Shown: piece after piece, positions 93 through 20,371 of the stretch
Layout of the letters: each line of letters starts with the position of its first letter
Position numbering within the stretch: position 1 is the first letter of the stretch
NCBI GenBank assembly: GCA_046761145.1
Contig: JBHIFP010000023.1
Coordinates: forward strand, 1 to 23,336
Origin: Candidatus Hydrothermarchaeales archaeon
GTDB lineage: Archaea; Hydrothermarchaeota; Hydrothermarchaeia; Hydrothermarchaeales; SZUA-236
Direction: 5' to 3'
DNA length: 23,336 nucleotides
Notes under the pieces: model-generated
Seen by the model: the letters and a program-made list of their open reading frames with translations, nothing else
The model's database searches: none
What the model was told of the DNA's origin: nothing
Position numbers and translations under genes: made by a program

Positions 93-467
93 CTACTCAG
101 CTGTTGCACTTTCGATGAGCTTTATTATCCTCCCAATATCCAAAGGTTTGTAGACCACGGCATATGCCCCTTCCCTCAGAGCTTCTGTTACGAGGGCATC
201 GTCGACGTAGGCCGTCATCATAATTACCGCCACCTCAGGGTATACTATCTTCTTGATCTCCCTAATAGTCTCTATGCCGTTTATTCCGGACATCTTTATA
301 TCCATGAGGATAACGTTGAAGAGCTCCCCCTTGAGTTTCTCAACCGCTTCAATTCCGCTCTCTGCAGTAGTTACATCGTATCCTCTCGCGCCCAGAATAT
401 CGGCCAAAGTCTCACAGGTGCCAACATCGTCGTCTACTACCAAGATACTAACTTTCCTTTCCTTCAT
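93..467 (-). CDS. Stand-alone CheY-like response regulator receiver domain protein
   Basis: 124 aa with a DDD acidic pocket near the N-terminus, the phospho-acceptor Asp in 'ILMDIKM', and a conserved Lys in 'VVYKP'. It overlaps the upstream histidine kinase gene by 20 nt on the same strand, giving a two-component operon. Confidence 0.85.
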   Translation of the reverse strand: MKERKVSILVVDDDVGTCETLADILGARGYDVTTAESGIEAVEKLKGELFNVILMDIKMSGINGIETIREIKKIVYPEVAVIMMTAYVDDALVTEALREGAYAVVYKPLDIGRIIKLIESATAE

Positions 468-2937
468 CTTCCTCTACTTCCATCACTGGTAGTTTTATAA
501 TGAAAGTTGCCCCCTTGTCTACAGCGCTCATCACATCGATGGTGCCCTCATGCCCGTCGATGATTTGTTTACATATCGCTAAACCCAAACCAATCCCTTT
601 TGCCTTGGTGGTAAAGAGCGGTTCGAAGATCTTCTCTATATTCTCTTTCGGAATCCCTTTGCCGGTGTCCTCAAACTCTATCTCTACGGAGTTGCCCTTA
701 CTTTTGGTTCTGATAATCAATTTACCACCTTCGGGCATCGCATGAACAGCGTTTGAAATCATATTCAAGAACACCCGCTGTAATTGCTCTCCGTCTGCCA
801 TCATCGAGGGTAAATCGGCCAGATAGGTTTCCACTTTGACATCGTCAGGTACCGATGCCCTGGCCAATGTATCCTTAAGGATCGCATTGATGTTGGCTTC
901 CCCAAAAGTGGGTTCTACCCCCCGTGAAAAGTCCAATAAGTCGGTGACGATTTTGTTGGAGGTATCTAGTTCCCTCTCTAGGATATTCAGGTGCTTCTTC
1001 ACCTTTTCATCTTTCCGGCCTAGGGTCATGTTGAGATAGTAGCTCACGTTCTTGATCACTCCAAGAGGATTTCTCAACTCGTGGCCAACACTCGCTGCCA
1101 GCTGCCCTATGGAAGCCAGCCTCTCTGACTTTACTAGCTGCTCTTGCGATTTTCTCAACTCCTCCATCTTACTTTCGACTTCAGCGCTGTAATATTTTAG
1201 AGACCGAATGGTCTCGTCCACTTCGGTAAACCCAACTCTGGCTATGAGCAAGGCCAGGAACATGCCTATCGCCCAGAGCAAGGTTACGTATTCATTTGTT
1301 GTGAAACTGAAGTTCTGCAAAAATCTGGTCTTGGAAAGGACCCCAAACCTCCCGACACCTTCGAGAAATATCGGGATAATGACCATAAATAGGAAGAGAC
1401 CGAAATAGCGCAGTTCCGGTATTCTAGTTGTCTGAACCGTTTTGTAGAGGGGATAAAGAACAAATATCGCCAAAAAGACGAAGACGTAAAGTTGTACCCT
1501 CCCCCACATAACTAGGAGCTTTACATTCCATGGCGCTTCGGGCGGCTCCCTCTTCCCTTGCAGAGTTAAGGTAGCATCGTCGATGCCTTGAAGCACGGCA
1601 TCGAGGTTGTCGATCGAGGGATTCCTCTTGGCATCTACAAATCTCTTTCTAATGACCATGTAAAGTTCTGGGTCTTCATCGGCGACTACACTTCTGATCG
1701 CATTGAAAATCGCCAAGGCATGATCGACCTCCGAAAGCGCCAATCCTGGTTCCCCGCGCCCAGTATATGCCCTAGCGGTCTGAAGATAATCGCGGATTAG
1801 CGCCAATTGGGTTATCTCTTCAGAACCAATCCCGCCAAATTCCAGGGTTCGCGCCAGCATGCTTATGCTGTGTCCTTGGCCATAACCCTCGTTGGCGGAT
1901 CCGTGAGAATCGTCATTCACAGCTATGCTGAAACGATAGGTCTTCGTGATATCGAACTGGACGTCGTCGTCGTGCCCGGTCTGCAATTTTCTCTTGAGTT
2001 CCAGATGCCACTTCCCGTCATAATAAACCCCTTTGGCGCTTATGTCTCTAGCACTTCCAGTCGGTTTTTCGGAGATGTATGCAGGAACTTTAAAGCCTAT
2101 CGGGATCTCCCTTCCATCGTTCAGTTTCGTCAGATTCAAAAATTCCACGGCCTCGTCCCTAAGGATCTCCTCCATCGTGATGTGTTTCGCATCTTCGCCC
2201 CTTGCGTCAAGTTCATAATATCTCGGCCCGATGAAATTACTCCTCTCATCGACAACCACATTCATTCTCTCCTCCACATACTCCCCCGATGTTTCATCTA
2301 GCTTGTGTGAATGCCATGTCTTCTCGATCATAGAGGTCCTAGAAAAACCAGGATATATCTTCTCCCCGATAACCACGGTATCGTCTAGGAATCCATCCCA
2401 CATATAGCCAGAGGGGTTGCCTTTCTCTGCCTTCCATTTCCAGTAATCGAGTCTTTCTTCTGGGGTATTGGTATGCATCCTATTTGCGTGGCAAGTAATG
2501 GCACATCCGGCTATATCGAAGCCCTCAACCGAGTCCCTTATGTTCCAGAAGATCGTGAACATATCCTCGGTATTTTTATTTGGGGGGTTCCAAGCAGTAC
2601 CATTATATCTCCAGAATAAAGCATCGCTTTGGGTTGGATCAGGCCATACGATGTACATATAGACATAGTCACGGTCATACAATGCCTTCATCTCCACATC
2701 CACATCCCCGACCTTTCCATCCACCACGGGGATGATCATTGTCTTTGTCTCATTCCACGAAGACTCTTTTGCCTGCCCATCTATGATTACCGCTTCGTTT
2801 GTTCTCACAGCGCTTAATAGCGTGCTATATTCTTCTTCCGCCGCTGTAAGCGTTCCATTTACCATAAGTGCACTAGCAATAAATGCCACTACCAAAATGA
2901 GCGCCGCTTTTTTTTGTTCTTTGTTCATCCAGCTCAC
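448..2937 (-). CDS. Sensor histidine kinase with a large N-terminal extracytoplasmic domain (~450 aa) and a multi-TM region
   Basis: 829 aa. N-terminal signal/TM 'AALILVVAFIASALMV'. C-terminal H-box 'ASVGHELRNPL' followed by an HATPase_c region (N-box 'FLNMISNAVHA', G-boxes 'DTGKGI', 'GLGLAI'). Four to five hydrophobic helices precede the HisKA domain. The start is probably GTG at 2937 (the track shows M), or ATG 9 nt downstream. Confidence 0.85.
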   Translation of the reverse strand: MSWMNKEQKKAALILVVAFIASALMVNGTLTAAEEEYSTLLSAVRTNEAVIIDGQAKESSWNETKTMIIPVVDGKVGDVDVEMKALYDRDYVYMYIVWPDPTQSDALFWRYNGTAWNPPNKNTEDMFTIFWNIRDSVEGFDIAGCAITCHANRMHTNTPEERLDYWKWKAEKGNPSGYMWDGFLDDTVVIGEKIYPGFSRTSMIEKTWHSHKLDETSGEYVEERMNVVVDERSNFIGPRYYELDARGEDAKHITMEEILRDEAVEFLNLTKLNDGREIPIGFKVPAYISEKPTGSARDISAKGVYYDGKWHLELKRKLQTGHDDDVQFDITKTYRFSIAVNDDSHGSANEGYGQGHSISMLARTLEFGGIGSEEITQLALIRDYLQTARAYTGRGEPGLALSEVDHALAIFNAIRSVVADEDPELYMVIRKRFVDAKRNPSIDNLDAVLQGIDDATLTLQGKREPPEAPWNVKLLVMWGRVQLYVFVFLAIFVLYPLYKTVQTTRIPELRYFGLFLFMVIIPIFLEGVGRFGVLSKTRFLQNFSFTTNEYVTLLWAIGMFLALLIARVGFTEVDETIRSLKYYSAEVESKMEELRKSQEQLVKSERLASIGQLAASVGHELRNPLGVIKNVSYYLNMTLGRKDEKVKKHLNILERELDTSNKIVTDLLDFSRGVEPTFGEANINAILKDTLARASVPDDVKVETYLADLPSMMADGEQLQRVFLNMISNAVHAMPEGGKLIIRTKSKGNSVEIEFEDTGKGIPKENIEKIFEPLFTTKAKGIGLGLAICKQIIDGHEGTIDVMSAVDKGATFIIKLPVMEVEEDEGKES

Positions 2938-3595: not shown

Positions 3596-4366
3596 ATGCC
3601 GATAGGGACATATATCGCTATACTCGTAATTTTGGTAGTCTTGGTACTTCTCAAGATGTCGATATGGATATTTAAAGAGTACGAGCGAGGGGTTCTCTTC
3701 AGGTTGGGGAGGTTGAAAGGTGCAAGAGGGCCGGGCTTAGTCTTCATAATACCCTTCGTAGATAAGATCTTCAGGGTAGATCTGAGGGTAGTTACAGAAA
3801 ATGTCTCGGCCCAAGACGTTATCACCAAGGACAATGTGACGACCAAAGTCGATGCCGTTATATACTTCAATGTAGTAGATCCAGTGAACTCCAAAATGGA
3901 GGTGGAGGACTACTTGGCATCTACCACGCTGATATCTCAGACAACCCTGAGGGGCGTTATCGGACAGCATGAGCTGGACGAAGTGCTCGCGGAGAGGGAT
4001 AAGATCAATTATACTCTTCAAAGGATTATAGATTCGCACACGGAACCTTGGGGAGTGAAGGTATCAGCTGTCGAGGTCAAAGACGTCGAGCTTCCAGAAA
4101 CTATGAAGAGGGCCATGGCGAGGCAAGCCGAGGCTGAGAGGGAGAGAAGGGCAAAGGTGATCAACGCCCTAGGGGAATTCCAAGCGGCAGAAAAACTTGC
4201 GCAAGCGGCAGATATTATTGGGCCCCATCCAATGGCGCTCCAATTGAGATATCTGCAATCTCTAGTCGAGGTCTCATCAGAACAGAGCTCATCGGTTATA
4301 TTCCCGGTGCCGATAGACCTATTTAAACCGTTCTTGAAGGGTAGTAAGAGTAAGAAAAAGGAGTGA
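3596..4366 (+). CDS. SPFH/band-7 (stomatin/prohibitin-like) membrane protein
   Basis: 256 aa. N-terminal TM helix, then the typical band-7 core '[10 protein letters not shown]...[10 protein letters not shown]...', then a C-terminal coiled-coil '[14 protein letters not shown]'. Confidence 0.9.
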
Positions 4367-4375
4367 TGCCTCACT

Positions 4376-4392
4376 TCTTTGACTTTTTATTC
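4376..4392 (+). terminator. Oligo-T stretch downstream of stomatin (archaeal-type terminator candidate)
   Basis: 'cttctttgactttttatt' lies immediately after the TGA stop at 4364-4366. Further T-runs occur at ~4440-4475. Confidence 0.3.
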
Positions 4393-4544
4393 GATGTAAG
4401 TTGTCATGCCCCCTCCAATATAAGGTTGCTTTTACTGGTTCTTTTTTATCTTTGATCTATTCTGTTTTTTGGAGATGAATTGCCAACTTAAAGAGAGGGG
4501 ATTAAATGATTCTAAAAGACGATTCAGCGCAATACCCATGCCGA

Positions 4545-4560
4545 CTTAAATATATATAAG
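4545..4560 (+). promoter_or_regulatory. Putative TATA box/promoter of the cytochrome operon
   Basis: 'cttaaatatatataag' lies 56-70 nt upstream of ATG 4616. GGAG lies 8 nt upstream of the ATG. Confidence 0.3.
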
Positions 4561-4615: not shown

Positions 4616-6130
4616 ATGCAGAAAGAGGAGAGAAAAAGAATCTCACTGCTGGTTGTAGCCGCGTTTGTGGTAGCAACGATTGCATTTGTAACATTAACGC
4701 CTGGATTCAGCTTCTTAGAACAATTTGTTAGAGTGGGAGAAGAAAAGCCAACCACCACTGAGGGGGCTACTTACGTCGGTTCAATTCGATGTAAGCAATG
4801 CCATGAAGGGACTTACGCCGGTTGGAAAACAACCTTGCATCCATATAAGATACAGAATATCGAGGATGCCCTTGTTGTCGGCGATTTCGAGAAGAACAAC
4901 AAGTTGGTCATCAAAAAGGGTGATGTCGAGTACACAACGACGATGTCAAAAAAGGAAGGGAAATACTACATAACCACTATTGGCCCGGATGGAAAGGAGC
5001 ACGCCTACGAAGTGCTCTATACCCTCGGTAGTGCCTGGAAGCAGAGATATCTCACGAAGTTCGACAATGGGGAATTCCATATACTCCCCGTTCAATGGAA
5101 TATTAGGGACCAGAAGTGGCAAGACTACCATGGGCTGGAGAAATATGATTATGATGATCCCAAAAATTATTGGAGCAGTAGGGGAAGGATCTGGCAGTAT
5201 AAATGTGCTGGTTGTCATACAACTGGTTTTCAAATAAACTACGATGAAGTCACGGATACCTATGCCTCAACTTGGATAGATAACGGAGTCGGATGTGAAG
5301 CTTGTCACGGACCGGGGAGCAACCACATATTGGCCGATATCCCTTACAAGAAGGAGACGATCGTCAATCCAGCGAAGATCCCACAAACAGATATAGGGGT
5401 CATGGTTTGTGGCTCATGCCACACCCGGGGTCATTCTACCCTCGATGCGAAATATGGATATCCCGTTGGCTACAAACCCGGCATGAACTTGGTACCTCTG
5501 TTCGATCCTGTTACGCGCGAAAAAGATACACCAAAACGCTTCTGGCCGAGTGGAGACTCCAGATCGCACCACCAACAGTATCTAGACTGGAAGACAAGCG
5601 AGCACGCGAGGGTAGGGATAGTATGCTGGGACTGCCACACCGTTCACTCTAAAGGTGAAGGCAAGTTCGAGACCAAGCTAGCAGGCACTGCGCTGTGCAA
5701 GGCCTGCCACGGTGAGCCGAGGGAGGTTCCAGGCCTCGCTGGGTTGAGCCACACCATCATGGACTTCGGGAACTGCGTCGGCTGCCACATGCCCCCGACT
5801 GCAAAGAGCATAAACCCAGGAGATATTAGGAGCCACAGGTTCAAGGTCATTAAACCAGAGGTCAGCATAAAACTCCTGCTTGACAAGGCTGCGAAGAAGG
5901 ATAAAACGGTCTTGGGCTTCTACGGCCTCGAGGCTAAAGATGTGGAAGGCCTTAACAAGACCGAAGTGGAAGAGCTGCTCAAGAACAAGGCCCGAGAAGC
6001 TATGTACGCAGGAAAAACCATGGACGACCTGCTCTGGAATGTGCAGCCCAACTCATGCAACGGATGCCACCACCACGTTTCACCTTGGATACTTCAAGAA
6101 TACCTCGAACCTCCGCGTCTGCATGAATAA
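4616..6130 (+). CDS. Octaheme c-type cytochrome, membrane-anchored or secreted (N-terminal TM/signal)
   Basis: 504 aa with eight canonical CxxCH motifs: CKQCH, CAGCH, CEACH, CGSCH, CWDCH, CKACH, CVGCH and CNGCH. N-terminal hydrophobic segment 'ISLLVVAAFVVATIAFVTL'. A haem-free ~130-aa insert lies between haem 1 and haem 2. Confidence 0.9.
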   Translation: MQKEERKRISLLVVAAFVVATIAFVTLTPGFSFLEQFVRVGEEKPTTTEGATYVGSIRCKQCHEGTYAGWKTTLHPYKIQNIEDALVVGDFEKNNKLVIKKGDVEYTTTMSKKEGKYYITTIGPDGKEHAYEVLYTLGSAWKQRYLTKFDNGEFHILPVQWNIRDQKWQDYHGLEKYDYDDPKNYWSSRGRIWQYKCAGCHTTGFQINYDEVTDTYASTWIDNGVGCEACHGPGSNHILADIPYKKETIVNPAKIPQTDIGVMVCGSCHTRGHSTLDAKYGYPVGYKPGMNLVPLFDPVTREKDTPKRFWPSGDSRSHHQQYLDWKTSEHARVGIVCWDCHTVHSKGEGKFETKLAGTALCKACHGEPREVPGLAGLSHTIMDFGNCVGCHMPPTAKSINPGDIRSHRFKVIKPEVSIKLLLDKAAKKDKTVLGFYGLEAKDVEGLNKTEVEELLKNKAREAMYAGKTMDDLLWNVQPNSCNGCHHHVSPWILQEYLEPPRLHE

Positions 6131-6157
6131 TAAAATTCTGCAAGGAGAACAGGACCA

Positions 6158-6721
6158 ATGAGAGAGATGGTAAAGGGAGGGGTTCTAATACTCCTCCTTT
6201 TAGGCTTCATATCCCTGAGCCATGTCGTGGAGGCTCAGGAAGTTCAGCAGAGGGACATGGAGAAATACTGGAGTGAGAGGTGGAAGAGCCCCCTACCCCC
6301 TGAGGCTAAGACGAAGTATAAGCTTGCATATACCCTTGAATATGCGAATAAGACGTACCAAGAATCTCCTCACGGAAAGGCAGCTGCTCTTGGAAAAGAG
6401 GGAGTTCCGACTTGTACGGATTGTCACGGCATGGTGGACTGGATGTATTTCCTTCCACAGAGCGATCCAAATTCACCCATCAATCCTAAGAACAGACCTG
6501 ATATATGCGCGAGGGAGGATTGTCATGGTGTTAAATTGCCCAATGCAGGCAAGGGATCGATGCATGGAAGCGATATATACTCTCTAGGCCCAACCTCCGT
6601 GAATGGGCTGATAAACTTCCTCTACAAAATACTTATCTCCGCAGTGATCGGATTCTTCGTAGTCTTTGAGATTTTGGACTTCACCAGAAAGTTCGGTAAG
6701 AGCAAGAGGGGGGGCGTGTGA
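6158..6721 (+). CDS. Small membrane-anchored dihaem(?) cytochrome c
   Basis: 187 aa. Signal peptide 'GGVLILLLLGFISLSHVVEA'. One canonical CTDCH plus a CAREDCH (CX4CH, cytochrome c3-like spacing). C-terminal TM anchor 'LISAVIGFFVVFEIL'. It sits 27 nt after the octaheme gene and ends 1 nt before the cytochrome b start. Confidence 0.7.
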   Translation: MREMVKGGVLILLLLGFISLSHVVEAQEVQQRDMEKYWSERWKSPLPPEAKTKYKLAYTLEYANKTYQESPHGKAAALGKEGVPTCTDCHGMVDWMYFLPQSDPNSPINPKNRPDICAREDCHGVKLPNAGKGSMHGSDIYSLGPTSVNGLINFLYKILISAVIGFFVVFEILDFTRKFGKSKRGGV

Positions 6722-6722
6722 A

Positions 6723-7397
6723 ATGGCCGAAGAGGAATTCTTAAGATTTACCGTCTTTCAGAGGATACAACACGTCCTTTGGGCCCTATCGTTTTTCGTA
6801 TTGGCATTGACGGGATTCCCACTGAAATACGCCCATACCTCATGGGCACGGGGTATAGTTGACTTGCTTGGGGGTCCGGATAAGAGAGGTTTATATCATC
6901 GAATTGCTGCAGTAGTATTCATCGGTACAGGTCTTATACACGTGATATACTATATCCTGATCGACAGAGGAAAGAAGGACATAATGCCGAAGAGGAAAGA
7001 TTTCGACGATGCTATACAACACATCAAATACAATTTAAGGATGACCGACGAAATGCCAAAAATGGGGAGGTACACCTGGGAGCAGAAGTTCGATTACTGG
7101 ACCGGAGCTGTTGGTTCCCTCATAGTAGTTGTGACGGGGTTTATGATGTGGTTCACATTCGATATGGTGTTGAAGGTACTGCCGCTGCAGTTCGTCAATT
7201 ATGCCCGGCTGATACATGGGTGGGAAGCAATTCTGGCATTTTCTTTCGTGATAGTGGTACATTTATACGCGACGATTTTGAATCCGGATGTATTTCCAAT
7301 GGCAAAGCAATGGATAACTGGAACACTGAGTAAAGAACAAATGGAACATGAGCACCCGTTGGAGCTGGAAGAATTGACAGAGGGGGAAGAGGCATAG
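6723..7397 (+). CDS. Dihaem cytochrome b membrane subunit (FdnI/HydC/Ni-hydrogenase cytochrome b-like, PF01292-type)
   Basis: Candidate His haem ligands in predicted TM helices: 'QHVLWAL', 'YHRIAAVVFIGTGLIHVIYY', 'HGWEAILAFSFVIVVHLY'. The ATG at 6723 (MAEEEF) lies directly after the TGA of the upstream gene. The track ORF extends to 6666, but the upstream extension overlaps the preceding CDS. Confidence 0.75.
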   Translation: MAEEEFLRFTVFQRIQHVLWALSFFVLALTGFPLKYAHTSWARGIVDLLGGPDKRGLYHRIAAVVFIGTGLIHVIYYILIDRGKKDIMPKRKDFDDAIQHIKYNLRMTDEMPKMGRYTWEQKFDYWTGAVGSLIVVVTGFMMWFTFDMVLKVLPLQFVNYARLIHGWEAILAFSFVIVVHLYATILNPDVFPMAKQWITGTLSKEQMEHEHPLELEELTEGEEA

Positions 7398-7404
7398 AGC
7401 CCAC

Positions 7405-7420
7405 CCGTTTTTCCTTTTTA
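7405..7420 (+). terminator. Oligo-T terminator candidate after the cytochrome b gene
   Basis: 'cgtttttcctttttat' (two T5 runs) begins 8 nt after the TAG stop at 7395-7397. It lies in the convergent intergenic region shared with tfs. Confidence 0.35.
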
Positions 7421-8256: not shown

Positions 8257-8724
8257 TTAAGATATCTTATGTATAAGTTCCATCGTCCCCAACTTAAAGT
8301 ATCCCAACTTGGGTATTATGAAGATAACCCTGCCATTGATCCATTCCCCCTTGACAGGAGTGGATATCCCCGAACGCGGGTCCTGATCGGTGTAAAAATT
8401 ATGATCCCCTTTTGTGTAAAAAAGTAAGGACCCTTCATAATCTTCGATCTTTACAACGCGGTGCACTATTGGGATGCCTTTTGCTGGATTCTGATAAACG
8501 ATTATATCCCCCCTCAGTAGTTGATCGGGATCGATGCCTCTGACGATGACCAAATCCCCCTTGTAGAATGTGGGGGCCATGCTATTCGAAACAACTGCCA
8601 TGACGGGCTTTTGGGTACCCAAAGCATAACCCAGGCCTTGATTCATAAATACCGCCAAGATCAGCCCTATCGCTATATACTTTATCGTGCTTATGATCTC
8701 TTCCTTCCACTTCATCGTCGACAC
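8257..8724 (-). CDS. Signal peptidase I, archaeal/Sec11 type (copy A)
   Basis: N-terminal TM anchor. Catalytic Ser motif 'VSNSMAPT'. Conserved 'GDLVIV...GDIIVY' and 'TKGDHN' boxes. A paralog lies at 12469..12930. Confidence 0.85.
   Translation of the reverse strand: MSTMKWKEEIISTIKYIAIGLILAVFMNQGLGYALGTQKPVMAVVSNSMAPTFYKGDLVIVRGIDPDQLLRGDIIVYQNPAKGIPIVHRVVKIEDYEGSLLFYTKGDHNFYTDQDPRSGISTPVKGEWINGRVIFIIPKLGYFKLGTMELIHKIS
8498..8604. repeat. 107-nt tract identical to 12713..12819 (internal segment of the two SPase I paralogs)
   Basis: Both loci carry 'acgattatatcccccctcagtagttgatcgggatcgatgcctctgacgatgaccaaatcccccttgtagaatgtgggggccatgctattcgaaacaactgccatgac'. Flanking sequence is only ~65-70% identical. 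Confidence 0.8.
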
Positions 8725-12468: not shown

Positions 12469-12930
12469 TTACAGGGTTCCTTTAATTGAGGTCGAGAATT
12501 CGGTCAGAATCACCTTAAACCAACCGAGCTTGGGTATAATTAGGATAACCCTCCCTTTCACGAGGTCTTCTCTGACTGGCGGCGAGATCCCGAACTCGGG
12601 GTCTGTCCTCAAATTGTGATCCCCTTTTGTTACAAAATACCGAAGCCCTTCGCGTTCCTCGATATCTACGATGCGATGCACGATGGGGATATTCTTATAA
12701 GGATTATAATATACGATTATATCCCCCCTCAGTAGTTGATCGGGATCGATGCCTCTGACGATGACCAAATCCCCCTTGTAGAATGTGGGGGCCATGCTAT
12801 TCGAAACAACTGCCATGACCGGTTTCTCTGTACCCAGGGCATAGCCCAATCCATGATTCATGATGGATGCCAAGATCAGCCCCAACAGTATATACTTCCC
12901 CGTCTCAACAATCTCTTTCTTTACATCCAT
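12469..12930 (-). CDS. Signal peptidase I, archaeal/Sec11 type (copy B)
   Basis: 153 aa paralog of 8257..8724 with the same motifs: 'VSNSMAPT', 'GDLVIV', 'TKGDHN'. Confidence 0.85.
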   Translation of the reverse strand: MDVKKEIVETGKYILLGLILASIMNHGLGYALGTEKPVMAVVSNSMAPTFYKGDLVIVRGIDPDQLLRGDIIVYYNPYKNIPIVHRIVDIEEREGLRYFVTKGDHNLRTDPEFGISPPVREDLVKGRVILIIPKLGWFKVILTEFSTSIKGTL

Positions 12931-15278: not shown

Positions 15279-16130
15279 GTGGCAGTCAAATTTGGTGCAG
15301 AGAAACTGTTGATTGACCAGTTCTTCGATCACCACGGCATGATGGAGATCTATGCGCATATCTATGCATCAATATTCCTGTTTCTTGCGAGCTTGGTCGC
15401 TGTTTACGTGCTCTATAAGATACTGGTAATGGAGTCCCCTTACACTTGGTCCGCGCTCACCGTCGGGATGATCGCTGTGGGATTCATAGGGCTTGGGGAA
15501 GCCGCCGAACACTTCTTCCCCCTAGACCCATTTAGCCATGATCTATTCCACTACTTGCATATGGTAGCCGCTCCAGTAGCGCTCTTCTTTTTATATAGAG
15601 GATCGAAAGAATTTATCGAGGAATCTTCAAACGCCTCCGAATTGGGAACTGAGGGCAGGATCAAACCTATGTCGTCCGATACTATAATGGCGATATTTGG
15701 GGGTATGGTGATCCTGGTGGTGGTTTTGGCCATGATGTCGGAAACTCCATGGGACCCATATATCGAAGGCCCCTTCATCTATCTCACCCTAATACCGACT
15801 TTGGTATTGGCTTATATGCTCTTACAGCAGGCCAGGCATACGACCGAATCCATCGTTATGGTGTTCATCCCGATCATTGCTGTTGCGGTCTCTTTGCTCG
15901 TCTTTGATATAATGCTTGGGAGGCTCATGGATATCTGGGGCTTGGCCCCTTTGTACGTTATAACTCACGTTGTGCAGAACGTCCTCCACGTTGCGACCGG
16001 CACGATACTGCTCCTATTCTCCATCACCACTTATCGCGCCAACAAGTTGGGAATTATATATGTCCGTGGTGAGCGTCCAAAATATGAAGCGCCTCCTCAT
16101 AAGAAGATCCCCGCGGAGGATTATTTCTAA
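15279..16130 (+). CDS. Hypothetical polytopic membrane protein (~7 TM)
   Basis: 283 aa, GTG start, hydrophobic throughout. No motif recognised. Coordinates follow the ORF track; in the printed text the same ORF reads from 15280. Confidence 0.5.
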   Translation: MAVKFGAEKLLIDQFFDHHGMMEIYAHIYASIFLFLASLVAVYVLYKILVMESPYTWSALTVGMIAVGFIGLGEAAEHFFPLDPFSHDLFHYLHMVAAPVALFFLYRGSKEFIEESSNASELGTEGRIKPMSSDTIMAIFGGMVILVVVLAMMSETPWDPYIEGPFIYLTLIPTLVLAYMLLQQARHTTESIVMVFIPIIAVAVSLLVFDIMLGRLMDIWGLAPLYVITHVVQNVLHVATGTILLLFSITTYRANKLGIIYVRGERPKYEAPPHKKIPAEDYF

Positions 16131-16248: not shown

Positions 16249-16785
16249 ATGAGCATAAAAGAGATCAGCAAAAGTTTGAGGGAGAACAAGTCTGGATTCC
16301 TTGTAACCTTCCTCGCTTTGCTGTTATTCTGGCTCTTTGTGTCATCGACCTTCGATATCCAACACATCATGCTTGGCGCCTTCTGCGCCCTCCTTGTCGC
16401 CGTCTTCTCCCACGAAATGCTCATTCGGAAAGGCGAGAGGGCCTTGCCTAAACCCAAAGTGATTATCCTGTATCTATTTTATATCGGATATCTGATAACC
16501 GAGATAATAAAGTCCAATATACAGGTTGCACGTATAGTCCTCGACCCAAAGATGCCCATATCTCCGGGGATAGTGAAATTCAAGACGGGCCTCAAGAAAG
16601 ACCTCATAAAAGTCACTTTGGCAAACTCGATTACACTGACCCCTGGTACTTTTACTATAGATATCATCGGCGATACATATTACGTCCACGCGATAACGAC
16701 CCATCGGCCCGAAGAATACGCCAGAGGCATTGAGGAGTGGCCCATGTTGAGGAGGTTGAGGGAGATAGAGAATGTTAGCGGGTGA
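16249..16785 (+). CDS. mrpE: Mrp/Mnh-type cation:proton antiporter subunit E (MbhA-like)
   Basis: 178 aa. 'NSITLTPGT' motif. First gene of a translationally coupled cluster. Confidence 0.75.
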   Translation: MSIKEISKSLRENKSGFLVTFLALLLFWLFVSSTFDIQHIMLGAFCALLVAVFSHEMLIRKGERALPKPKVIILYLFYIGYLITEIIKSNIQVARIVLDPKMPISPGIVKFKTGLKKDLIKVTLANSITLTPGTFTIDIIGDTYYVHAITTHRPEEYARGIEEWPMLRRLREIENVSG

Positions 16786-17063
16786 GCAAAACGATCGAGC
16801 CAAATATCTTCATTTATATGGGTGTGATATTGGGGTTCACGAGCTTCTTATGTCTCTACAGAGGGGTTAAAGGGCCATCTGCACCGGATAGGGTAATCGC
16901 GATAAATGTGATAGGGACAAAGACCATGGTAATTTTGGTTTTGTTTGCTTACATCTATGAGCATCCTTTATACATCGACGTGGCCATCGTCTATGCCCTG
17001 ATCAACTTCTTAGCCACCCTAACGATTTCGAAATATTTGGAGAAGGGGGAGTTGGGCGAATGA
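16782..17063 (+). CDS. mrpF: Mrp/Mnh antiporter subunit F (MbhB-like)
   Basis: 93 aa. 'KGPSAPDRVIAINVIG' (the GPx..DR..A.D signature). ATGA overlap with mrpE. Confidence 0.8.
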   Translation: MSKTIEPNIFIYMGVILGFTSFLCLYRGVKGPSAPDRVIAINVIGTKTMVILVLFAYIYEHPLYIDVAIVYALINFLATLTISKYLEKGELGE

Positions 17064-17419
17064 TCGATACGATAGTAATGCTATTCTTTATCATAGGACT
17101 GTTCTTCTTCATCGTTGGAACGATCGGATTGTTGAGGCTGCCCGATGTCTATACGAGGATGCACGCCACGACAAAGTGCGACACCTTGGGAGCGATGACG
17201 ATATTGACAGGACTTGCCGTATATTCTGTTGTATTGGGCGCGCCAGGAAGTTTGTTCATTTCGGGAAAAATGATTTTGATAGCAACCTTTATCTTTGTCG
17301 CCAATCCCACTTCGGCACATGCCATAGCCAAGGCCGCATACCTTAGCGGTGTTAAGTTATGGGAAGGAAGTGTATTTGATATGTACGGGAAAGATGCAAA
17401 AAAAACGTATGCGAGGTGA
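17060..17419 (+). CDS. mrpG: Mrp/Mnh antiporter subunit G (MbhC-like)
   Basis: 119 aa. 'GLLRLPDVYTRMHATTKCDTLG' signature. Overlapping start. Confidence 0.8.
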   Translation: MIDTIVMLFFIIGLFFFIVGTIGLLRLPDVYTRMHATTKCDTLGAMTILTGLAVYSVVLGAPGSLFISGKMILIATFIFVANPTSAHAIAKAAYLSGVKLWEGSVFDMYGKDAKKTYAR

Positions 17420-17670
17420 AAAGAATGATATGGCTCTTGGATCTGATCCTTCTTCTATTTTTGGTGGTATGTTCCCTAGAGGTGATCCGTACAAAGGATC
17501 TACTGAGCGCCGTTGTGATCTTCTCTGCATATAGCCTAGTCATGTCGATCATATGGCAGCAATTAGATGCCCCGGACATAGCCATAACCGAAGCAGCTGT
17601 CGGAGCCGGGATTACTACGATGTTGTTCATAGCGACCATAAGTAAGACGACGAGGTGGGAAGAAGAATGA
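17416..17670 (+). CDS. MnhB-N-terminal-like small membrane subunit (DUF4040; MbhD-like)
   Basis: 84 aa. 'AVVIFSAYSLVMSIIWQQLDAPDIAITEAAVGAGITT'. Confidence 0.65.
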   Translation: MKRMIWLLDLILLLFLVVCSLEVIRTKDLLSAVVIFSAYSLVMSIIWQQLDAPDIAITEAAVGAGITTMLFIATISKTTRWEEE

Positions 17671-17975
17671 GGTTAAAGGGGTCGTTGGCCAGACGGTTTT
17701 TGGCCCTTCTTTTTGTGATAATAATCGGATATGCCCTAGTGACGATCGTGACAGAGATGCCCCCCTTTGGGGATCCAAACAGTCCTGGATATACCCATGT
17801 GGTGCCGAGGTACATAACCGAGAATGTTGAGGAAACTGGAGCCTTGAACATCGTTGCGAGTATAATAGTCGATTATAGGGCCTATGACACCCTCGGTGAG
17901 ACGACAGTGCTCTATACCGCGGCCCTCGGCATCATCTCCGTTCTCGCTTTAGGAGGAGAGCACGAGGAGGAATGA
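17667..17975 (+). CDS. MnhB-related small membrane subunit (MbhE-like)
   Basis: Start placed at the ATGA overlap (MRLKGS). 'NIVASIIVDYRAYDTLGETTVLYTAALGI'. Confidence 0.6.
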   Translation: MRLKGSLARRFLALLFVIIIGYALVTIVTEMPPFGDPNSPGYTHVVPRYITENVEETGALNIVASIIVDYRAYDTLGETTVLYTAALGIISVLALGGEHEEE

Positions 17976-17976
17976 G

Positions 17977-18402
17977 ATGGAAGATGTAATCGTTAGGACC
18001 GTAACAAGGATGATGACCCCCCTCATACAGATGTTCGGTTTGTACATCATATTTCACGGCCATTTAACCCCTGGTGGCGGGTTTCAGGGCGGTGCGGTCA
18101 TAGGTGGCAGCATGATACTGATCGCCGTGGTCTTCGGCTTGAAAGAGGGCAATAGGAGGGCGCCCCATGATCTCTCTGTGATACTCGAAAGTTTCGCCTT
18201 GGGTTATGCTATCATAGGTTTATTAGGCATTCTTTTAGGAGGAAATTTCTTGGCAAATAAGATCGTTGGGATACCTGTTGGGACGCCCGGAGCTTTGTTG
18301 AGCGGAGGTATAATCCTCGGAATCAACATAGTAATCGGGTTCAAGGTCGCTAGTACTGGGAAAACTCTATTTTACACTATAGTGGAGGAACGGCCAGAAT
18401 GA
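17977..18402 (+). CDS. mrpB: Mrp/Mnh antiporter subunit B (MbhF-like)
   Basis: 141 aa. 'GHLTPGGGFQGG' MnhB signature. Confidence 0.75.
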   Translation: MEDVIVRTVTRMMTPLIQMFGLYIIFHGHLTPGGGFQGGAVIGGSMILIAVVFGLKEGNRRAPHDLSVILESFALGYAIIGLLGILLGGNFLANKIVGIPVGTPGALLSGGIILGINIVIGFKVASTGKTLFYTIVEERPE

Positions 18403-18779
18403 TGATACCCGCGGGTTTTTATCAGTACAATTACCTGATCTCTTCAACCCTATTTTTGATAGGTCTGTACACGATGATCACCAGGAAGAACCTGATAAAG
18501 AAGATCATAGGGCTGAATATCATGGACACCTCGATATTCCTATTCTTCATATCTATGGGGAGCGTCAAAGGAGGGAGGGCCCCGATCGTTATTCCTGGCG
18601 TCGAGAATGTGGTGTATGTGAATCCACTGCCCCAAGCCCTCATACTCACTGCCATCGTCGTTGCTGTCAGCGTCACCGCGTTTGCACTCGGCCTCACGAT
18701 AAAATTGTACGAGAAGTATGGTACGCTGAACGGAGATAAGATCAGAGAGATCAGGATAAGAGGACCTGGAGAGAGTTGA
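18399..18779 (+). CDS. mrpC: Mrp/Mnh antiporter subunit C (NuoK-like; MbhG-like)
   Basis: 126 aa. Three TM helices. NuoK-like 'TRKNLIKKIIGLNIMDTSIFLFFI'. Confidence 0.75.
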   Translation: MMIPAGFYQYNYLISSTLFLIGLYTMITRKNLIKKIIGLNIMDTSIFLFFISMGSVKGGRAPIVIPGVENVVYVNPLPQALILTAIVVAVSVTAFALGLTIKLYEKYGTLNGDKIREIRIRGPGES

Positions 18780-18780
18780 G

Positions 18781-20274
18781 ATGGGCATCTCCCAACATTT
18801 TCCTGTCTTGATAGTAGTAACACCGTTGATAGCTTCCTATATTGTCCCGATGTTTGCCAGATGGAGAAAGGAGTGGTGTGTGCCTACAACTATATCCGCT
18901 ACTCTCCTGTCTTTCTTTATGGCTATCTCGATGGCATTCACCGTGCAAAAGGCAGGCCCAATACACTACTATCTTGGAAACTGGGAACCTCCGTGGGGGA
19001 TAGAGGTTGCGGTAGATTATCTGGGCGCCTTCGTGGCATTGATGGTTACTGGCATTGGTCTACTTATAGTCATATTCTCAGTTAGATATGCCGAGGAGAT
19101 GATAGATGAGAGAAATATATATTTATATTATGCCTTGGTCTTACTCCTCTTGGCGGGTCTCACTGGGATGGTCGTCACGGGCGACATATTCAACCTATTC
19201 GTCTTCCTGGAGATCGCCTCTCTGTCTTCCTATGCATTGGTTCCGATTGCTGGCAAGAAGGGAACGGAAGGGCAGTTCGAATCGAGCTTCAGATACCTCT
19301 ACATGGGGGCAATGGCCTCGAGCTTTGTGCTACTCGGTATTGGTTTAACATATATGACCACCGGGACCTTGAATATGGCCGATCTTGCAGTAAGGATAAA
19401 AGAGGTTGCAATGCCCAATTATCCTAGGGTGTTATTGGCCGGTTTGGGTTTTTTGGTCGTCGGCTTCAGTCTGAAAACTGCACTATTCCCGTTGCACATA
19501 TGGGTGCCGGATGCATATACCCATGCGCCAGCGCCTGTAAACGCATTATGCTCAGGAATAACTTTAGAGGTCGGCGCTTATGTCCTTATAAGGCTCTTTT
19601 ATTCCATCTTCGGTATGCCCGTTGTAAATGGCACAGCGCTCGATGAGATACTGCCACTGCTTGCCGGTATAGCAATCATCTTCGGTTCTCTATTTGCGAT
19701 AGCCCAGAACGATGTCTTCCGCATGTTGGCGTACTCAACTATAAGCCAGATGGGCTATATAGTTCTTGGTGCAACATTATTCTCTCATAATGGTTTGATA
19801 GGGGGGATATACCATCTAATCAATCATTCGGTTATGAAGGGCACGATGTTCCTGGCGGTTGGTGCTGTGGTCTATAAGACGGGGATCAGGGATATACCCG
19901 AATTTGGTGGTCTGGGCAAGAAGATGCCCCTGACCATGGGCGCATTTTCAATATCCGCCCTCGGGATGGTCGGGATACCTCCCCTTGCGGGCTTTATGAG
20001 CAAATTTTTCCTGGTCCTCGGAAGTCTGCAATCAAATATGGCTTTCGTATTCGTCATACTTGCGAGTAGTTTGCTGAATGCGGTCTATTTCATGAGGGTG
20101 ATAAACCACATATATTTCGGAGTCCCCGAAGATTTGGTGATCAAGAGGGATGAAGCGCCTTTGAGCATGTTGATACCGACGGTTATCATGGGGCTTGGGG
20201 TTATAGCCCTGGGCCTATTTCCCGGTGCTCCACTCTCCTTGATAAAGCCCGCGGTCAAGTTGCTAGGGCTGTAG
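18781..20274 (+). CDS. mrpD: Mrp antiporter subunit D / NuoN-L-M family proton-translocating subunit (MbhH-like)
   Basis: 497 aa and ~14 TM helices. 'WVPDAYTHAPAPVNALCSG' and 'ISQMGYI' signatures. Confidence 0.85.
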   Translation: MGISQHFPVLIVVTPLIASYIVPMFARWRKEWCVPTTISATLLSFFMAISMAFTVQKAGPIHYYLGNWEPPWGIEVAVDYLGAFVALMVTGIGLLIVIFSVRYAEEMIDERNIYLYYALVLLLLAGLTGMVVTGDIFNLFVFLEIASLSSYALVPIAGKKGTEGQFESSFRYLYMGAMASSFVLLGIGLTYMTTGTLNMADLAVRIKEVAMPNYPRVLLAGLGFLVVGFSLKTALFPLHIWVPDAYTHAPAPVNALCSGITLEVGAYVLIRLFYSIFGMPVVNGTALDEILPLLAGIAIIFGSLFAIAQNDVFRMLAYSTISQMGYIVLGATLFSHNGLIGGIYHLINHSVMKGTMFLAVGAVVYKTGIRDIPEFGGLGKKMPLTMGAFSISALGMVGIPPLAGFMSKFFLVLGSLQSNMAFVFVILASSLLNAVYFMRVINHIYFGVPEDLVIKRDEAPLSMLIPTVIMGLGVIALGLFPGAPLSLIKPAVKLLGL

Positions 20275-20371
20275 CTAGGAAATATTTATTGTGAAAGATT
20301 AGAAACATTTATGTAGCACGCGTAAATAAAGAATACTTGCAATCTATCATGATAAATCATTTAGATGTGGT

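What the first reader, a model, noticed from the sequence alone, without database searches (positions are those of the whole stretch)
4616..7397. Archaeal three-gene multihaem cytochrome c / cytochrome b operon (Cbc-like quinol:cytochrome c module)
An octaheme cytochrome c (8 CxxCH), a C-terminally membrane-anchored small cytochrome c and an FdnI/HydC-type dihaem cytochrome b are encoded back-to-back with 27-nt and 1-nt spacers. This architecture matches the bacterial Cbc/CbcL-type inner-membrane quinol oxidoreductases used for extracellular or periplasmic electron transfer in Geobacter. Multihaem c-type cytochromes are confined to a few archaeal lineages (Archaeoglobi such as Ferroglobus/Geoglobus, ANME/Methanoperedens). 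Here the module is embedded among core archaeal housekeeping genes, so it is chromosomal. The octaheme also carries a ~130-aa haem-free insert between haem 1 and haem 2 ('…LYTLGSAWKQRYLTKFDNGEFHILPVQWNIRDQKWQDY…'). I cannot assign this insert to a known domain. It could be a substrate-binding or catalytic domain (OTR/ONR/HAO-like) rather than a pure wire.
Basis: partly seen in the sequence, partly recalled or inferred. Interest (0 to 1): 0.78.

Follow-up and report, generated by a model that had tools for sequence, protein, structure and literature searches.

The report
Archaeal quinone-linked octahaem cytochrome operon
An uncultured Hydrothermarchaeales archaeon carries a real three-gene operon for an eight-haem cytochrome c related to the bacterial surface reductase OcwA, a small membrane-anchored two-haem cytochrome c, and a formate-dehydrogenase-type cytochrome b; together they probably link the membrane quinone pool to an unidentified substrate outside the cell, and the same uncharacterised module is widespread in bacteria.

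Summary
Three co-directional genes (4616-6130, 6158-6721, 6723-7397; spacers 27 and 1 nt) encode an 8-CxxCH cytochrome c, a small exported cytochrome c with a C-terminal membrane helix, and an FdnI/HydC-type cytochrome b that keeps all four FdnI haem-ligand histidines.

There are three corrections:
- The small cytochrome is dihaem, because its CAREDCH aligns to CxxCH in homologues.
- The "unassignable insert" is a conserved beta-sheet domain of the whole family, not an archaeal novelty.

ORFs B and C are collinear with single-chain 11-haem c/b fusion proteins of CbcL-type architecture. In sister lineages the B+C pair is replaced by an NrfH-type quinol dehydrogenase.

The best reading is a quinone-pool-coupled octahaem oxidoreductase with an unknown substrate and an unproven direction of electron flow.

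The family has more than 2,500 relatives, almost all bacterial, and at least 14 bacterial species carry the same three-gene unit. The archaeal copy therefore looks horizontally acquired. I rate it an uncharacterised variant of a known kind, of moderate interest.

The parts
4546..4559 (+). TATA-box-like element (TTAAATATATATAA) about 60 nt upstream of the octahaem start codon; candidate archaeal promoter of the operon
   Evidence: Read directly from the sequence. T-rich tracts after the Band_7 gene (4380-4470) suggest that the upstream gene terminates separately. This is inference and was not tested.
4616..6130 (+). ORF A: 504-aa octahaem cytochrome c. It has an N-terminal membrane anchor or signal (res 9-27), haem 1 (C59), a beta-sheet domain (res ~79-170), haems 2-8, a His-His pocket at H318/H319, and a clade-specific helical insert (res ~414-470) between haems 7 and 8.
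6158..6721 (+). ORF B: 187-aa dihaem cytochrome c. It has a Sec signal peptide (cleavage predicted after A26), CTDCH (C86) and CAREDCH (C117, a Cx4CH site), candidate distal histidines H72 and H136, and a C-terminal TM helix (~151-169).
   Evidence: CAREDCH aligns to CAQCH/CAKCH in homologues L087 and L089 (E 1e-34 to 1e-51). The unit is a repeat found in 873 larger multihaem proteins.
6723..7397 (+). ORF C: 224-aa FdnI/HydC-type dihaem cytochrome b, the presumed quinone/quinol site. Conserved histidines are H17, H59, H73, H165 and H180.
   Evidence: Pfam Ni_hydr_CYTB scores 73.4 bits. Alignment to 1kqf_C is full-length, with the four FdnI haem-ligand histidines matched.
7408..7419 (+). Oligo-T tract (TTTTTCCTTTTT) 11 nt after the stop codon of ORF C; candidate archaeal terminator. 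The next gene is convergent.
   Evidence: Read from the sequence. Not tested.
448..2937 (-). Candidate regulator (association inferred only): a sensor histidine kinase with an extracytoplasmic EB_dh (haem-binding type) domain. The response regulator lies at 93-467 (-).
   Evidence: The same arrangement is present in the 82%-identical relative L001. Kinase/regulator pairs also precede homologues in L003 and L088.

Best explanation
The three genes encode one respiratory module on the outer face of the archaeal cytoplasmic membrane.

Components:
- ORF C is an FdnI/HydC-type dihaem cytochrome b that exchanges electrons with the membrane quinone pool.
- ORF B is a dihaem cytochrome c held against the cytochrome b by its C-terminal helix. 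This is the same topology as FdnH or the hydrogenase small subunit. B+C together equal a split CbcL-type protein.
- ORF A is an N-terminally tethered OcwA-like octahaem. It takes electrons along a chain of bis-His haems to haem 2.

Proposed active site and direction:
- Haem 2 is predicted to have an open distal site under a His-His pocket next to a conserved beta-sheet domain. A soluble acceptor would be reduced there.
- The candidate acceptors are nitrite or hydroxylamine, a sulfur or metalloid oxyanion, or soluble Fe(III).
- The proposed flow is therefore quinol -> 2 haems b -> 2 haems c -> 8 haems c -> substrate.

Shown:
- Gene order, motifs, export signals and fold.
- Homology to OcwA, FdnI and the CbcL-type fusions.
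- Interchangeability of the B+C pair with NrfH.

Inferred:
- Physical complex formation.
- Five-coordination of haem 2.
- The direction of electron flow and the identity of the substrate.
For: Octahaem (A):
- The alignment pairs A's haems 1-4 with OcwA haems 1-4, and A's haems 5-8 with OcwA haems 6-9.
- A's H318/H319 align with chain residues 252/253 of OcwA. These equal H281/H282 of the paper, because the +29 offset also reproduces HH380/381. H281/H282 form the distal pocket of five-coordinate haem 2 (PMC6703420).
- Every solved relative that has this haem has it five-coordinate (PMC9250108).
- In 144 relatives the N-terminal module has exactly three conserved non-motif histidines (H75, H237, H330) for haems 1, 3 and 4. 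Residues 318/319 switch between HH (94-99 sequences) and NR (45-49 sequences). They therefore behave as pocket residues, not axial ligands.

Partner genes:
- Partner genes are always membrane quinone-interacting modules.
- The small-cytochrome-c + FdnI-like-b pair occurs in the window, L001, L087, L089 and 14 bacterial loci.
- An NrfH/NapC-type gene occupies the same position in L002, L005, L009 and L088, and more weakly in L013 and L031. This includes members of the same clade, which has 98% bootstrap support.

Membrane module (B+C):
- B+C are collinear with fused c/b proteins.
- The nearest relatives of the cytochrome b are each preceded by a B-like cytochrome.
- All four FdnI haem-ligand histidines are conserved in C.

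Other:
- Both c-type cytochromes carry export signals.
- Tight spacing, Shine-Dalgarno-like GGAG/GGGGG sequences, a TATA-like box and an oligo-T tract fit one transcription unit.
Against: - No haem coordinates were available, so the five-coordination of haem 2 rests on homology and on counting histidines.
- Eight conserved non-motif histidines exist overall: H75, H237, H330, H344, H379, H382, H407 and H487. Full six-coordination is therefore not formally excluded.
- OcwA itself is thought to act physiologically as an electron outlet to Fe(III), not as an enzyme for small molecules.
- FdnI/HydC-type cytochromes b classically reduce quinone rather than oxidise quinol.
- No gene near the window operon, and no conserved neighbour across the 14 bacterial three-gene loci, points to a substrate.
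- In some bacteria the octahaem-NrfH pair lies inside ArrA-like molybdoenzyme clusters. There the octahaem could simply be an electron relay.
- Complex formation among A, B and C is not shown.
Confidence: 0.5

Rival explanations
1. The octahaem is a pure electron conduit for extracellular or inter-protein electron transfer. B+C act as a CbcL-like quinol oxidase. The octahaem is only a haem wire that hands electrons to Fe(III)/Mn(IV), to a syntrophic partner, or to other periplasmic reductases. The open haem and the His-His pocket would be incidental.
For: - The closest characterised relative, OcwA, is the cell-surface terminal reductase for Fe(III) and electrodes (PMC6703420).
- CbcL-type proteins serve extracellular electron transfer in Geobacter (PMC6295460), and B+C share that architecture.
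- An archaeon has no outer membrane, so a membrane-tethered octahaem already faces the outside.
- Hydrothermarchaeota were proposed to be iron reducers on the basis of their multihaem cytochromes (PMC6775978, PMC6759336).
- In L002 and L005 the octahaem-NrfH pair is embedded in ArrA-like molybdoenzyme clusters that lack a membrane subunit in the stretch seen. That fits a relay role.
Against: - Most family members are from didermic bacteria, and several have lipoprotein-type signal peptides. No porin-cytochrome or outer-membrane conduit genes lie next to them.
- The distal-pocket residues and the beta domain around haem 2 are strongly conserved (Q143, W168 and W186 invariant; Q320 in 142/144). 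They fall into two discrete types, HH and NR. This pattern is expected of a ligand-binding site rather than a wire.
- Eight haems span only a few nanometres, which is too short to cross an S-layer space without further partners. This point is inference.
Confidence: 0.25
2. The module runs in the oxidative direction. A reduced substrate is oxidised at the octahaem; candidates are hydroxylamine, sulfite or thiosulfate, arsenite, and Fe(II). The electrons pass through B to the cytochrome b, which reduces menaquinone at the cytoplasmic side. This would be a proton-motive redox loop like formate dehydrogenase-N or [NiFe] hydrogenase.
For: - The three-subunit layout copies FdnGHI/HyaABC: a catalytic subunit, an electron-transfer subunit with a C-terminal TM helix, and an FdnI/HydC cytochrome b with all four histidine ligands.
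- In those enzymes the cytochrome b reduces quinone.
- CbcL/MtoC/MtrH and NapC-family proteins occur in both Fe(III) reducers and Fe(II) oxidisers and are thought to work in either direction (PMC6295460).
- A His-to-Met change at position 382 in the window protein would raise a haem's potential if residue 382 is an axial ligand.
Against: - Known members of the OcwA/MccA branch act as reductases.
- NrfH-type partners in sister lineages are most often quinol dehydrogenases.
- Nothing in the window points to an oxidisable substrate.
Confidence: 0.15

Closest known systems
OcwA (Thermincola potens nonahaem cell-surface reductase, PDB 6I5B) and OmhA (6QVM)
   Same: - The order of haems 1-4 and 6-9 is the same, and the CAGCH haem-2 motif is the same.
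- The 'SHHxQY' distal pocket is conserved.
- Both have a haem-free beta domain after haem 1.
- The CHMP motif at the penultimate haem is shared.
   Different: - It has eight haems, not nine.
- OcwA's haem 5 (the NrfA-type second active site) and its HH380/381 pocket are absent.
- It is membrane-tethered and encoded with quinone-interacting membrane partners, rather than being a Gram-positive cell-wall protein.
- It has an extra ~55-aa helical insert before the last haem.
- The family is large and mostly from didermic bacteria, whereas OcwA/OmhA had 2-4 known sequences (PMC9250108).
MccA (Wolinella succinogenes octahaem sulfite reductase, 4RKM)
   Same: - The eight-haem layout is the same, namely OcwA minus haem 5.
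- The active-site position is at haem 2.
- The beta-sheet domain is shared.
   Different: - There is no CX15CH or CX17CH last-haem motif.
- There is no cysteine pair for the copper site. All 16 cysteines lie in CxxCH motifs.
- It is about 150 residues shorter.
- The partners are B+C or NrfH, not MccC/MccD-type subunits.
NrfHA cytochrome c nitrite reductase complex
   Same: - The logic is the same: a periplasmic multihaem enzyme is encoded next to its membrane quinol dehydrogenase.
- Sister-lineage homologues are followed by an NrfH-type gene (TIGR03153 at 59-64 bits, below its cut-off).
   Different: - There is no CxxCK haem, and the Pfam Cytochrom_C552 score is 12.9 bits against a cut-off of 24.1.
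- The open haem lies in the N-terminal (c554-type) module, not the NrfA module.
- The window copy uses a cytochrome c + cytochrome b pair instead of NrfH.
CbcL / MtoC / MtrH inner-membrane cytochromes (Geobacter and others)
   Same: - A multihaem c domain, a TM helix and a HydC/FdnI-like dihaem b domain occur in the same order.
- B+C align collinearly with single-chain 11-haem c/b proteins.
   Different: - It is split into two genes.
- Only two c haems remain in B.
- A separate OcwA-like octahaem gene is added upstream.
- Direct comparison with GSU0274 could not be run.
- The 2018 survey found CbcL-family members only in Bacteria (PMC6295460).
Formate dehydrogenase-N (FdnGHI) and [NiFe] hydrogenase (HyaABC) architecture
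   Same: - There are three subunits with identical topology: an exported catalytic subunit, an exported electron-transfer subunit with a C-terminal TM helix, and an FdnI/HydC cytochrome b with four conserved histidine ligands.
   Different: - Haems c replace the Mo/Ni and FeS centres.
- ORF C scores below the FdnI equivalog cut-off (74.2 against 115.85 bits).
- No FdnG/FdnH genes are present.

Membership tests
OcwA/OmhA-type multihaem reductases | Overall fold and haem-core order of OcwA | tested here: met
   [not shown]
OcwA/OmhA-type multihaem reductases | Nine (or eleven) haems with two five-coordinate haems, each under a His-His motif | tested here: not met
   Only eight CxxCH motifs are present. 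The first HH motif is present (H318/H319 = OcwA H281/H282). The second HH motif and haem 5 fall in OcwA segments that have no counterpart here.
OcwA/OmhA-type multihaem reductases | High-spin, five-coordinate haem 2 | not testable with these tools
   This is inferred from homology and from the histidine count. No haem-containing coordinates or spectroscopy were available.
MccA sulfite reductase | Cu site formed by two cysteines, and a CX15CH/CX17CH last-haem motif | tested here: not met
   The protein has 16 cysteines, all in CxxCH motifs. The last haem motif is CNGCH.
NrfA / ONR nitrite reductases | CxxCK (or clade-specific CxxCH) catalytic haem in the NrfA module, with the Tyr/His/Arg triad, and family HMM scores above cut-off | tested here: not met
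   Pfam PF02335 scores 12.9 bits against 24.1. NCBIfam PRK11125 scores 8 bits against 595. There is no CxxCK motif. The haem equivalent to NrfA haem 1 (OcwA haem 5) is absent.
OTR / HAO-type octahaems | Family fold: OTR with lysine-ligated haem 2; HAO with a tyrosine-cross-linked P460 haem | tested here: not met
   [not shown]
Pfam Ni_hydr_CYTB (HydC/FdnI cytochrome b) | HMM score above the gathering threshold, and four haem-ligand histidines on TM1, TM2 and TM4 | tested here: met
   The score is 73.4 bits against 30.1. H17, H59, H165 and H180 align with the FdnI ligand histidines in 1kqf_C.
Formate dehydrogenase gamma subunit (FdnI equivalog) | TIGR01583 score above cut-off, and adjacent FdnG/FdnH genes | tested here: not met
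   The score is 74.2 bits against 115.85. The neighbours are c-type cytochromes, not molybdoenzyme or FeS subunits.
CbcL/MtoC/MtrH quinol oxidase / quinone reductase family | Multihaem c domain followed by TM helices with a HydC/FdnI-like dihaem b domain | tested here: inconclusive
   The architecture is met in split form. B (res 65-180) and C (res 3-219) align in order to P0127, P0131, P0135, P0138 and P0140, which have 11 CxxCH plus a b domain. C is about 32% identical to the b domain, at 85-129 bits. Geobacter CbcL itself was not available for comparison, and no NCBIfam model names it.
NapC/NirT (NrfH, CymA) quinol dehydrogenases | N-terminal TM helix plus a tetrahaem domain (Pfam Cytochrom_NNT) | tested here: not met
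   No such gene is in the window operon. It is present as the alternative partner in L002, L005, L009 and L088.

The most novel reading that the evidence does not exclude
The window operon may represent a large, unnamed family of respiratory enzymes: a quinone-coupled 'OcwA-minus-haem-5' octahaem oxidoreductase. Its active site would be haem 2 under a His-His (or Asn-Arg) pocket beside a lipocalin-like beta domain. It would act on a substrate class not yet assigned to multihaem enzymes. The recurrent arsenic, tellurite and selenite gene neighbours in bacteria hint at metalloid oxyanions. The Gram-positive surface reductases OcwA and OmhA would then be a specialised offshoot of this periplasmic family. 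In Hydrothermarchaeales the enzyme, acquired from bacteria, would provide a terminal-acceptor pathway that metabolic reconstructions of the phylum have missed.
Probability: 0.3. Interest if true: 0.7.

Novelty: new variant of a known kind. Interest (0 to 1): 0.5.

Why it matters
The NrfA/c554/OcwA superfamily underlies key steps of the nitrogen, sulfur and iron cycles. Its OcwA/OmhA branch was known from only a handful of Firmicutes sequences.

This operon belongs to a sister family with thousands of members, found in at least 334 species-level genomes. The family is wired directly to the quinone pool by two interchangeable membrane modules, and no function has been assigned to it.

Identifying its substrate would add a respiratory reaction to many anaerobes, including Desulfobacterota and Nitrospirota, and to some alphaproteobacteria. 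It would also clarify which terminal electron acceptors uncultured Hydrothermarchaeota use in hydrothermal and subseafloor settings. For evolution, it gives a concrete case of haem-module pruning (loss of haem 5), of partner swapping, and of bacterium-to-archaeon transfer of a complete respiratory unit.

Tried and rejected
- **Curated families.** Pfam and NCBIfam scans of A and B gave only generic multihaem hits, all far below family cut-offs (for example GSU2203 decahaem at 81 bits against 325). B had no Pfam hit at all. No curated family fits.
- **NrfA annotation.** Some databases label relatives as 'ammonia-forming nitrite reductase c552'. I rejected this because there is no CxxCK motif, the score is below threshold, and the NrfA-type active haem is missing.
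- **Link between B and the bacterial trihaem middle gene.** An HMM built from seven trihaem proteins did not detect B. Only weak pairwise hits (E ~1e-5 in a tiny database) join L087/L089 to them. I treat the two as topological analogues and possible remote homologues only.
- **Search for a substrate clue.** Clustering all flanking ORFs of 18 loci found nothing conserved beyond the three genes, apart from antisense shadow ORFs. Pfam on selected neighbours gave unrelated functions, or CHASE2-cyclase sensors.
- **Proving five-coordination by counting histidines.** Eight conserved non-motif histidines exist, so the count alone is not decisive. Only their split between the N- and C-terminal modules is suggestive.
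- **Bacterial sigma-70 and terminator scans.** These were at background level, as expected for an archaeon.
- **Literature.** Searches for a named octahaem / small cytochrome c / cytochrome b operon, or for OcwA-like periplasmic enzymes, found none.
- **Taxonomy of the closest non-Hydrothermarchaeales relatives (P0003-P0006).** This could not be settled, because those records carry no organism names.
Full report
**1. What is in the sequence.**

- A spans 4616-6130 and encodes 504 aa.
- B spans 6158-6721 and encodes 187 aa.
- C spans 6723-7397 and encodes 224 aa.

The ORF lister extends C to a TTG at 6666. The ATG at 6723 is the start supported by a 100%-identical 224-aa database protein and by homologues.

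The spacers are 27 nt and 1 nt. A GGAG precedes B and a G-run precedes C. A TTAAATATATATAA element lies about 60 nt upstream of A. An oligo-T tract follows C, before a convergent TFS/RpoM gene. Together these features fit one archaeal transcription unit. That is inference.

A has eight CxxCH motifs and no other cysteine. B has CTDCH and CAREDCH. C has no cysteine and nine histidines.

A starts with a basic stretch and a hydrophobic helix (res 9-27). B has a Sec-type signal peptide (…VEA|QE) and a C-terminal TM helix.

The surrounding genes are archaeal housekeeping genes plus an Mrp-type antiporter. The octahaem is identical to MFQ6136326.1 from a Candidatus Hydrothermarchaeales MAG contig of exactly 23,336 bp.

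**2. The octahaem.**

Curated libraries give only generic multihaem hits below family thresholds.

Against solved structures the best match is OcwA of Thermincola potens (6I5B).
- phmmer gives 4.9e-20 and the family profile gives 1.8e-41.
- An AlphaFold2 model built on 45 homologues has pLDDT 85.7 and pTM 0.81.
- Foldseek gives OcwA E 4e-17, then OmhA, then MccA.

This places the protein in "clade 3" (c554/MccA/OcwA/OmhA) of Soares et al. (PMC9250108).

The profile alignment pairs the haem motifs as follows.

| Window protein | OcwA |
|---|---|
| haem 1 | CKTCH |
| haem 2 (CAGCH) | CAGCH |
| haem 3 | CEQCH |
| haem 4 | CGQCH |
| haems 5-8 | CQVCH, CTQCH, CVDCHMP, CSSCH |

OcwA's ninth motif must lie in chain segment 268-301, which has no counterpart here. 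That is the position of its haem 5. The layout is therefore OcwA minus haem 5, which is the MccA-type eight-haem arrangement described in PMC6703420.

The window's S-H318-H319-Q-Q-Y aligns with OcwA chain residues 251-256 (S-H-H-L-Q-Y). A +29 offset converts chain HH252/253 and HH351/352 into the paper's HH281/282 and HH380/381, so both pairs confirm the offset. H281/H282 sit over the distal face of five-coordinate haem 2 (PMC6703420).

All solved relatives that contain this haem (c554, MccA, OTR, OcwA, OmhA) have it five-coordinate (PMC9250108).

In 144 aligned relatives:
- The eight proximal histidines are essentially invariant.
- The N-terminal module contains three further conserved histidines (H75, H237, H330) for haems 1, 3 and 4.
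- The C-terminal module contains five (H344, H379, H382, H407, H487) for haems 5-8.
- Positions 318/319 are HH in 94-99 sequences and NR in 45-49, next to a Q320 conserved in 142 of 144 sequences.

That pattern fits pocket residues over an open haem, not axial ligands. It remains an inference, because I had no haem-containing coordinates.

There is no MccA copper site, since there are no spare cysteines. There is also no CxxCK motif.

**3. The "insert".**

Residues ~79-170 are predicted as a nine-strand beta-sheet domain. The domain is present in every family member, bacterial ones included. Q143, W168 and W186 are invariant, and W141, K142, Y145, P158 and W161 are nearly invariant.

OcwA also has about 105 haem-free residues between haems 1 and 2. 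The OcwA paper states that OcwA and MccA share an extra beta-sheet domain.

It is therefore a family hallmark adjacent to haem 2, not an archaeal novelty. What is specific to the window's clade is a helical insert of about 55 aa between haems 7 and 8 (res ~414-470).

**4. The small cytochrome (B).**

Homologues in L087 and L089 (E 1e-34 to 1e-51) have CAQCH/CAKCH exactly where B has CAREDCH. Other relatives carry CADDDCH, CSRKECH or CGQEDCH at the same site. The Cx4CH is therefore a haem site and B is dihaem. H72 and H136 are the only candidates for distal ligands.

A full HMMER scan of 1.8 billion representatives found 873 relatives. In most of these, B's unit (res ~65-125) is repeated 2-9 times and the last copy is followed by the same TM helix.

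**5. The cytochrome b (C), and B+C as a unit.**

C passes Pfam Ni_hydr_CYTB (73.4 bits) but not the FdnI equivalog cut-off. It aligns end to end with E. coli FdnI, with matches at all four haem-ligand histidines. A fifth histidine, H73, is conserved within this subfamily.

The closest cytochrome b relatives are each directly preceded by a B-like multihaem that ends in the same TM segment. These include L092, L093 from another Hydrothermarchaeales MAG, and L094 from Anaeromyxobacter.

Five proteins of 633-671 aa (P0127, P0131, P0135, P0138, P0140) contain 11 CxxCH motifs, then the B-type TM helix, then a domain about 32% identical to C, in that order. This is the architecture reported for CbcL/MtoC/MtrH: a multihaem N-terminal half and a C-terminal half of TM helices resembling HydC/FdnI (PMC6295460).

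B+C is thus a split, haem-poor version of that design. Topologically it also mirrors FdnH+FdnI.

**6. Distribution, partners and origin.**

The octahaem has more than 2,500 relatives. It occurs in at least 334 species-representative genomes. Of the best 80, only two are archaeal, and both are Hydrothermarchaeota.

ORF-level comparison of 86 loci gave the following.
- A conserved three-gene unit was found: octahaem, then an exported small cytochrome c with a C-terminal TM helix, then an FdnI-like cytochrome b.
- This unit occurs in the window, L001/L007, L087 and L089, where the middle protein is dihaem.
- It also occurs in 14 bacterial loci (Desulfovibrio, Desulfobacter, Desulfobaccales, Syntrophobacterales, Magnetococcales, Aliiruegeria), where the middle protein is trihaem.
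- Nothing else is conserved around it.

In other lineages the downstream gene is instead an NrfH/NapC-type cytochrome. This is seen in L002, L005, L009 and L088, and less clearly in L013 and L031.

A neighbour-joining tree (377 columns, 50 bootstraps) shows the following.
- The window and L007 fall in a 98%-supported clade with P0003-P0006 (cytochrome c + b partners) and P0008 (NrfH partner).
- The second Hydrothermarchaeota locus, L009, has two tandem paralogues plus NrfH and falls elsewhere.
- The trihaem + cytochrome b bacteria form a separate, 100%-supported deep clade.

Partner swapping between two quinone-interacting modules within one clade is the main argument that the octahaem is wired to the quinone pool. 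The taxon distribution argues for bacterial origin and transfer into Hydrothermarchaeota, possibly more than once. The tree is unrooted by real outgroups, and the taxonomy of P0003-P0006 is unknown.

**7. Mechanism.**

The best-supported reading has confidence about 0.5. In it, menaquinol is oxidised at the cytochrome b. Electrons pass over two b haems, two c haems in B and the bis-His chain of A to haem 2, where a soluble acceptor is reduced.

OcwA reduces nitrite and hydroxylamine in vitro as well as iron (PMC6703420, PMC9250108). This makes N-oxides plausible substrates. Earlier reconstructions of Hydrothermarchaeota found nitrate reductase and Nor but no NirS/NirK (PMC6759336).

There are two rivals.
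- A pure electron conduit for extracellular or inter-protein transfer (confidence 0.25). It is supported by the physiological roles of OcwA and CbcL, and by bacterial loci where octahaem-NrfH sits inside ArrA-like clusters.
- Oxidative operation as an Fdn-N-like redox loop (confidence 0.15).

If quinol is oxidised at the cytoplasmic-side site typical of FdnI, outward electron transfer would consume membrane potential. This has been proposed for thiosulfate reductase and would suit low-potential acceptors. That point comes from my own knowledge and was not tested here.

**8. Novelty and verdict.**

Multihaem cytochromes in Hydrothermarchaeota, the OcwA/MccA/NrfA superfamily, and FdnI/CbcL-type cytochromes b are all known.

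The following appear to be undescribed, since no curated model and no name in the searched literature covers them.
- This specific, very large octahaem family.
- Its conserved three-gene unit.
- Its alternation between a split CbcL-type module and NrfH.

I rate it a new variant of a known kind with interest 0.5. The finding is real and mechanistically suggestive, but its building blocks are not surprising. The substrate and the direction of electron flow remain open.

Noticed in passing
window 448-2937 (-) and 93-467 (-): A sensor histidine kinase with an extracytoplasmic EB_dh (ethylbenzene-dehydrogenase gamma-like, haem-binding type) domain, plus a receiver-only response regulator, lie divergently upstream of the operon. 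The same arrangement is present in the 82%-identical relative L001. Kinase/regulator pairs or CHASE2-cyclases also precede homologues in L003, L088, L019 and L027.
   Followed up: partly
window 5759-5761 (residue 382 of ORF A): The window protein and its closest relatives have Met where 140 of 144 family members have His (motif H-x-x-H before haem 7). If this residue is an axial ligand, one haem would become His/Met and shift to a higher potential.
   Followed up: partly
L002, L005, L088, L090, L091 (bacterial homologue loci): Arsenic and metalloid genes recur next to bacterial homologues. L005 has an ArrA-like molybdoenzyme (NF041714, 919 bits on a fragment), an ArrB-like protein and TorD-type chaperones around octahaem-NrfH. 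L002 has an Mo-enzyme, an ExtM-like 11-haem protein, ArsC, ACR3 and ArsR. L090 has an LMWPc/ArsC-like gene. L091 has TehB. L088 has an ArsR-type regulator. None of these is present in the window.
   Followed up: partly
L009:419-3541: A second Hydrothermarchaeota MAG carries two tandem octahaem paralogues (404 and 458 aa) followed by a 4-haem NrfH-type gene. Its octahaem falls in a different clade of the tree from the window protein, which suggests separate acquisitions.
   Followed up: partly
window 3596-4366 (+): An SPFH/Band_7 gene lies immediately upstream of the cytochrome operon. A bacterial homologue locus (L003/L004) also has NfeD, Band_7, a kinase and a regulator directly upstream of its octahaem. 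This could be coincidence or an old linkage.
   Followed up: no
window 5855-6025 (residues ~414-470 of ORF A): A helical insertion of about 55 residues lies between haems 7 and 8. It is found only in the window's clade (P0001-P0008). Its function is unknown.
   Followed up: no
P0127, P0131, P0135, P0138, P0140; L092, L093, L094: There is a large family of cytochromes built from repeats of ORF B's dihaem unit. Its members are either fused to an FdnI-like cytochrome b (11 haems, 633-671 aa) or encoded immediately upstream of one. Several are archaeal-looking or from Hydrothermarchaeales. This contrasts with the 2018 report that CbcL-type proteins are restricted to Bacteria.
   Followed up: partly
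window 8257-8724 (-) and 12469-12930 (-): Two paralogous signal-peptidase-I-like (S26) genes lie within 5 kb of each other among the housekeeping genes.
   Followed up: no
window 15279-16130 (+) and 16249-21862 (+): A 283-aa ORF with no Pfam match lies just upstream of an Mrp-type cation/proton antiporter cluster (MnhE, MnhG, MnhB and two MnhD-like subunits).
   Followed up: no
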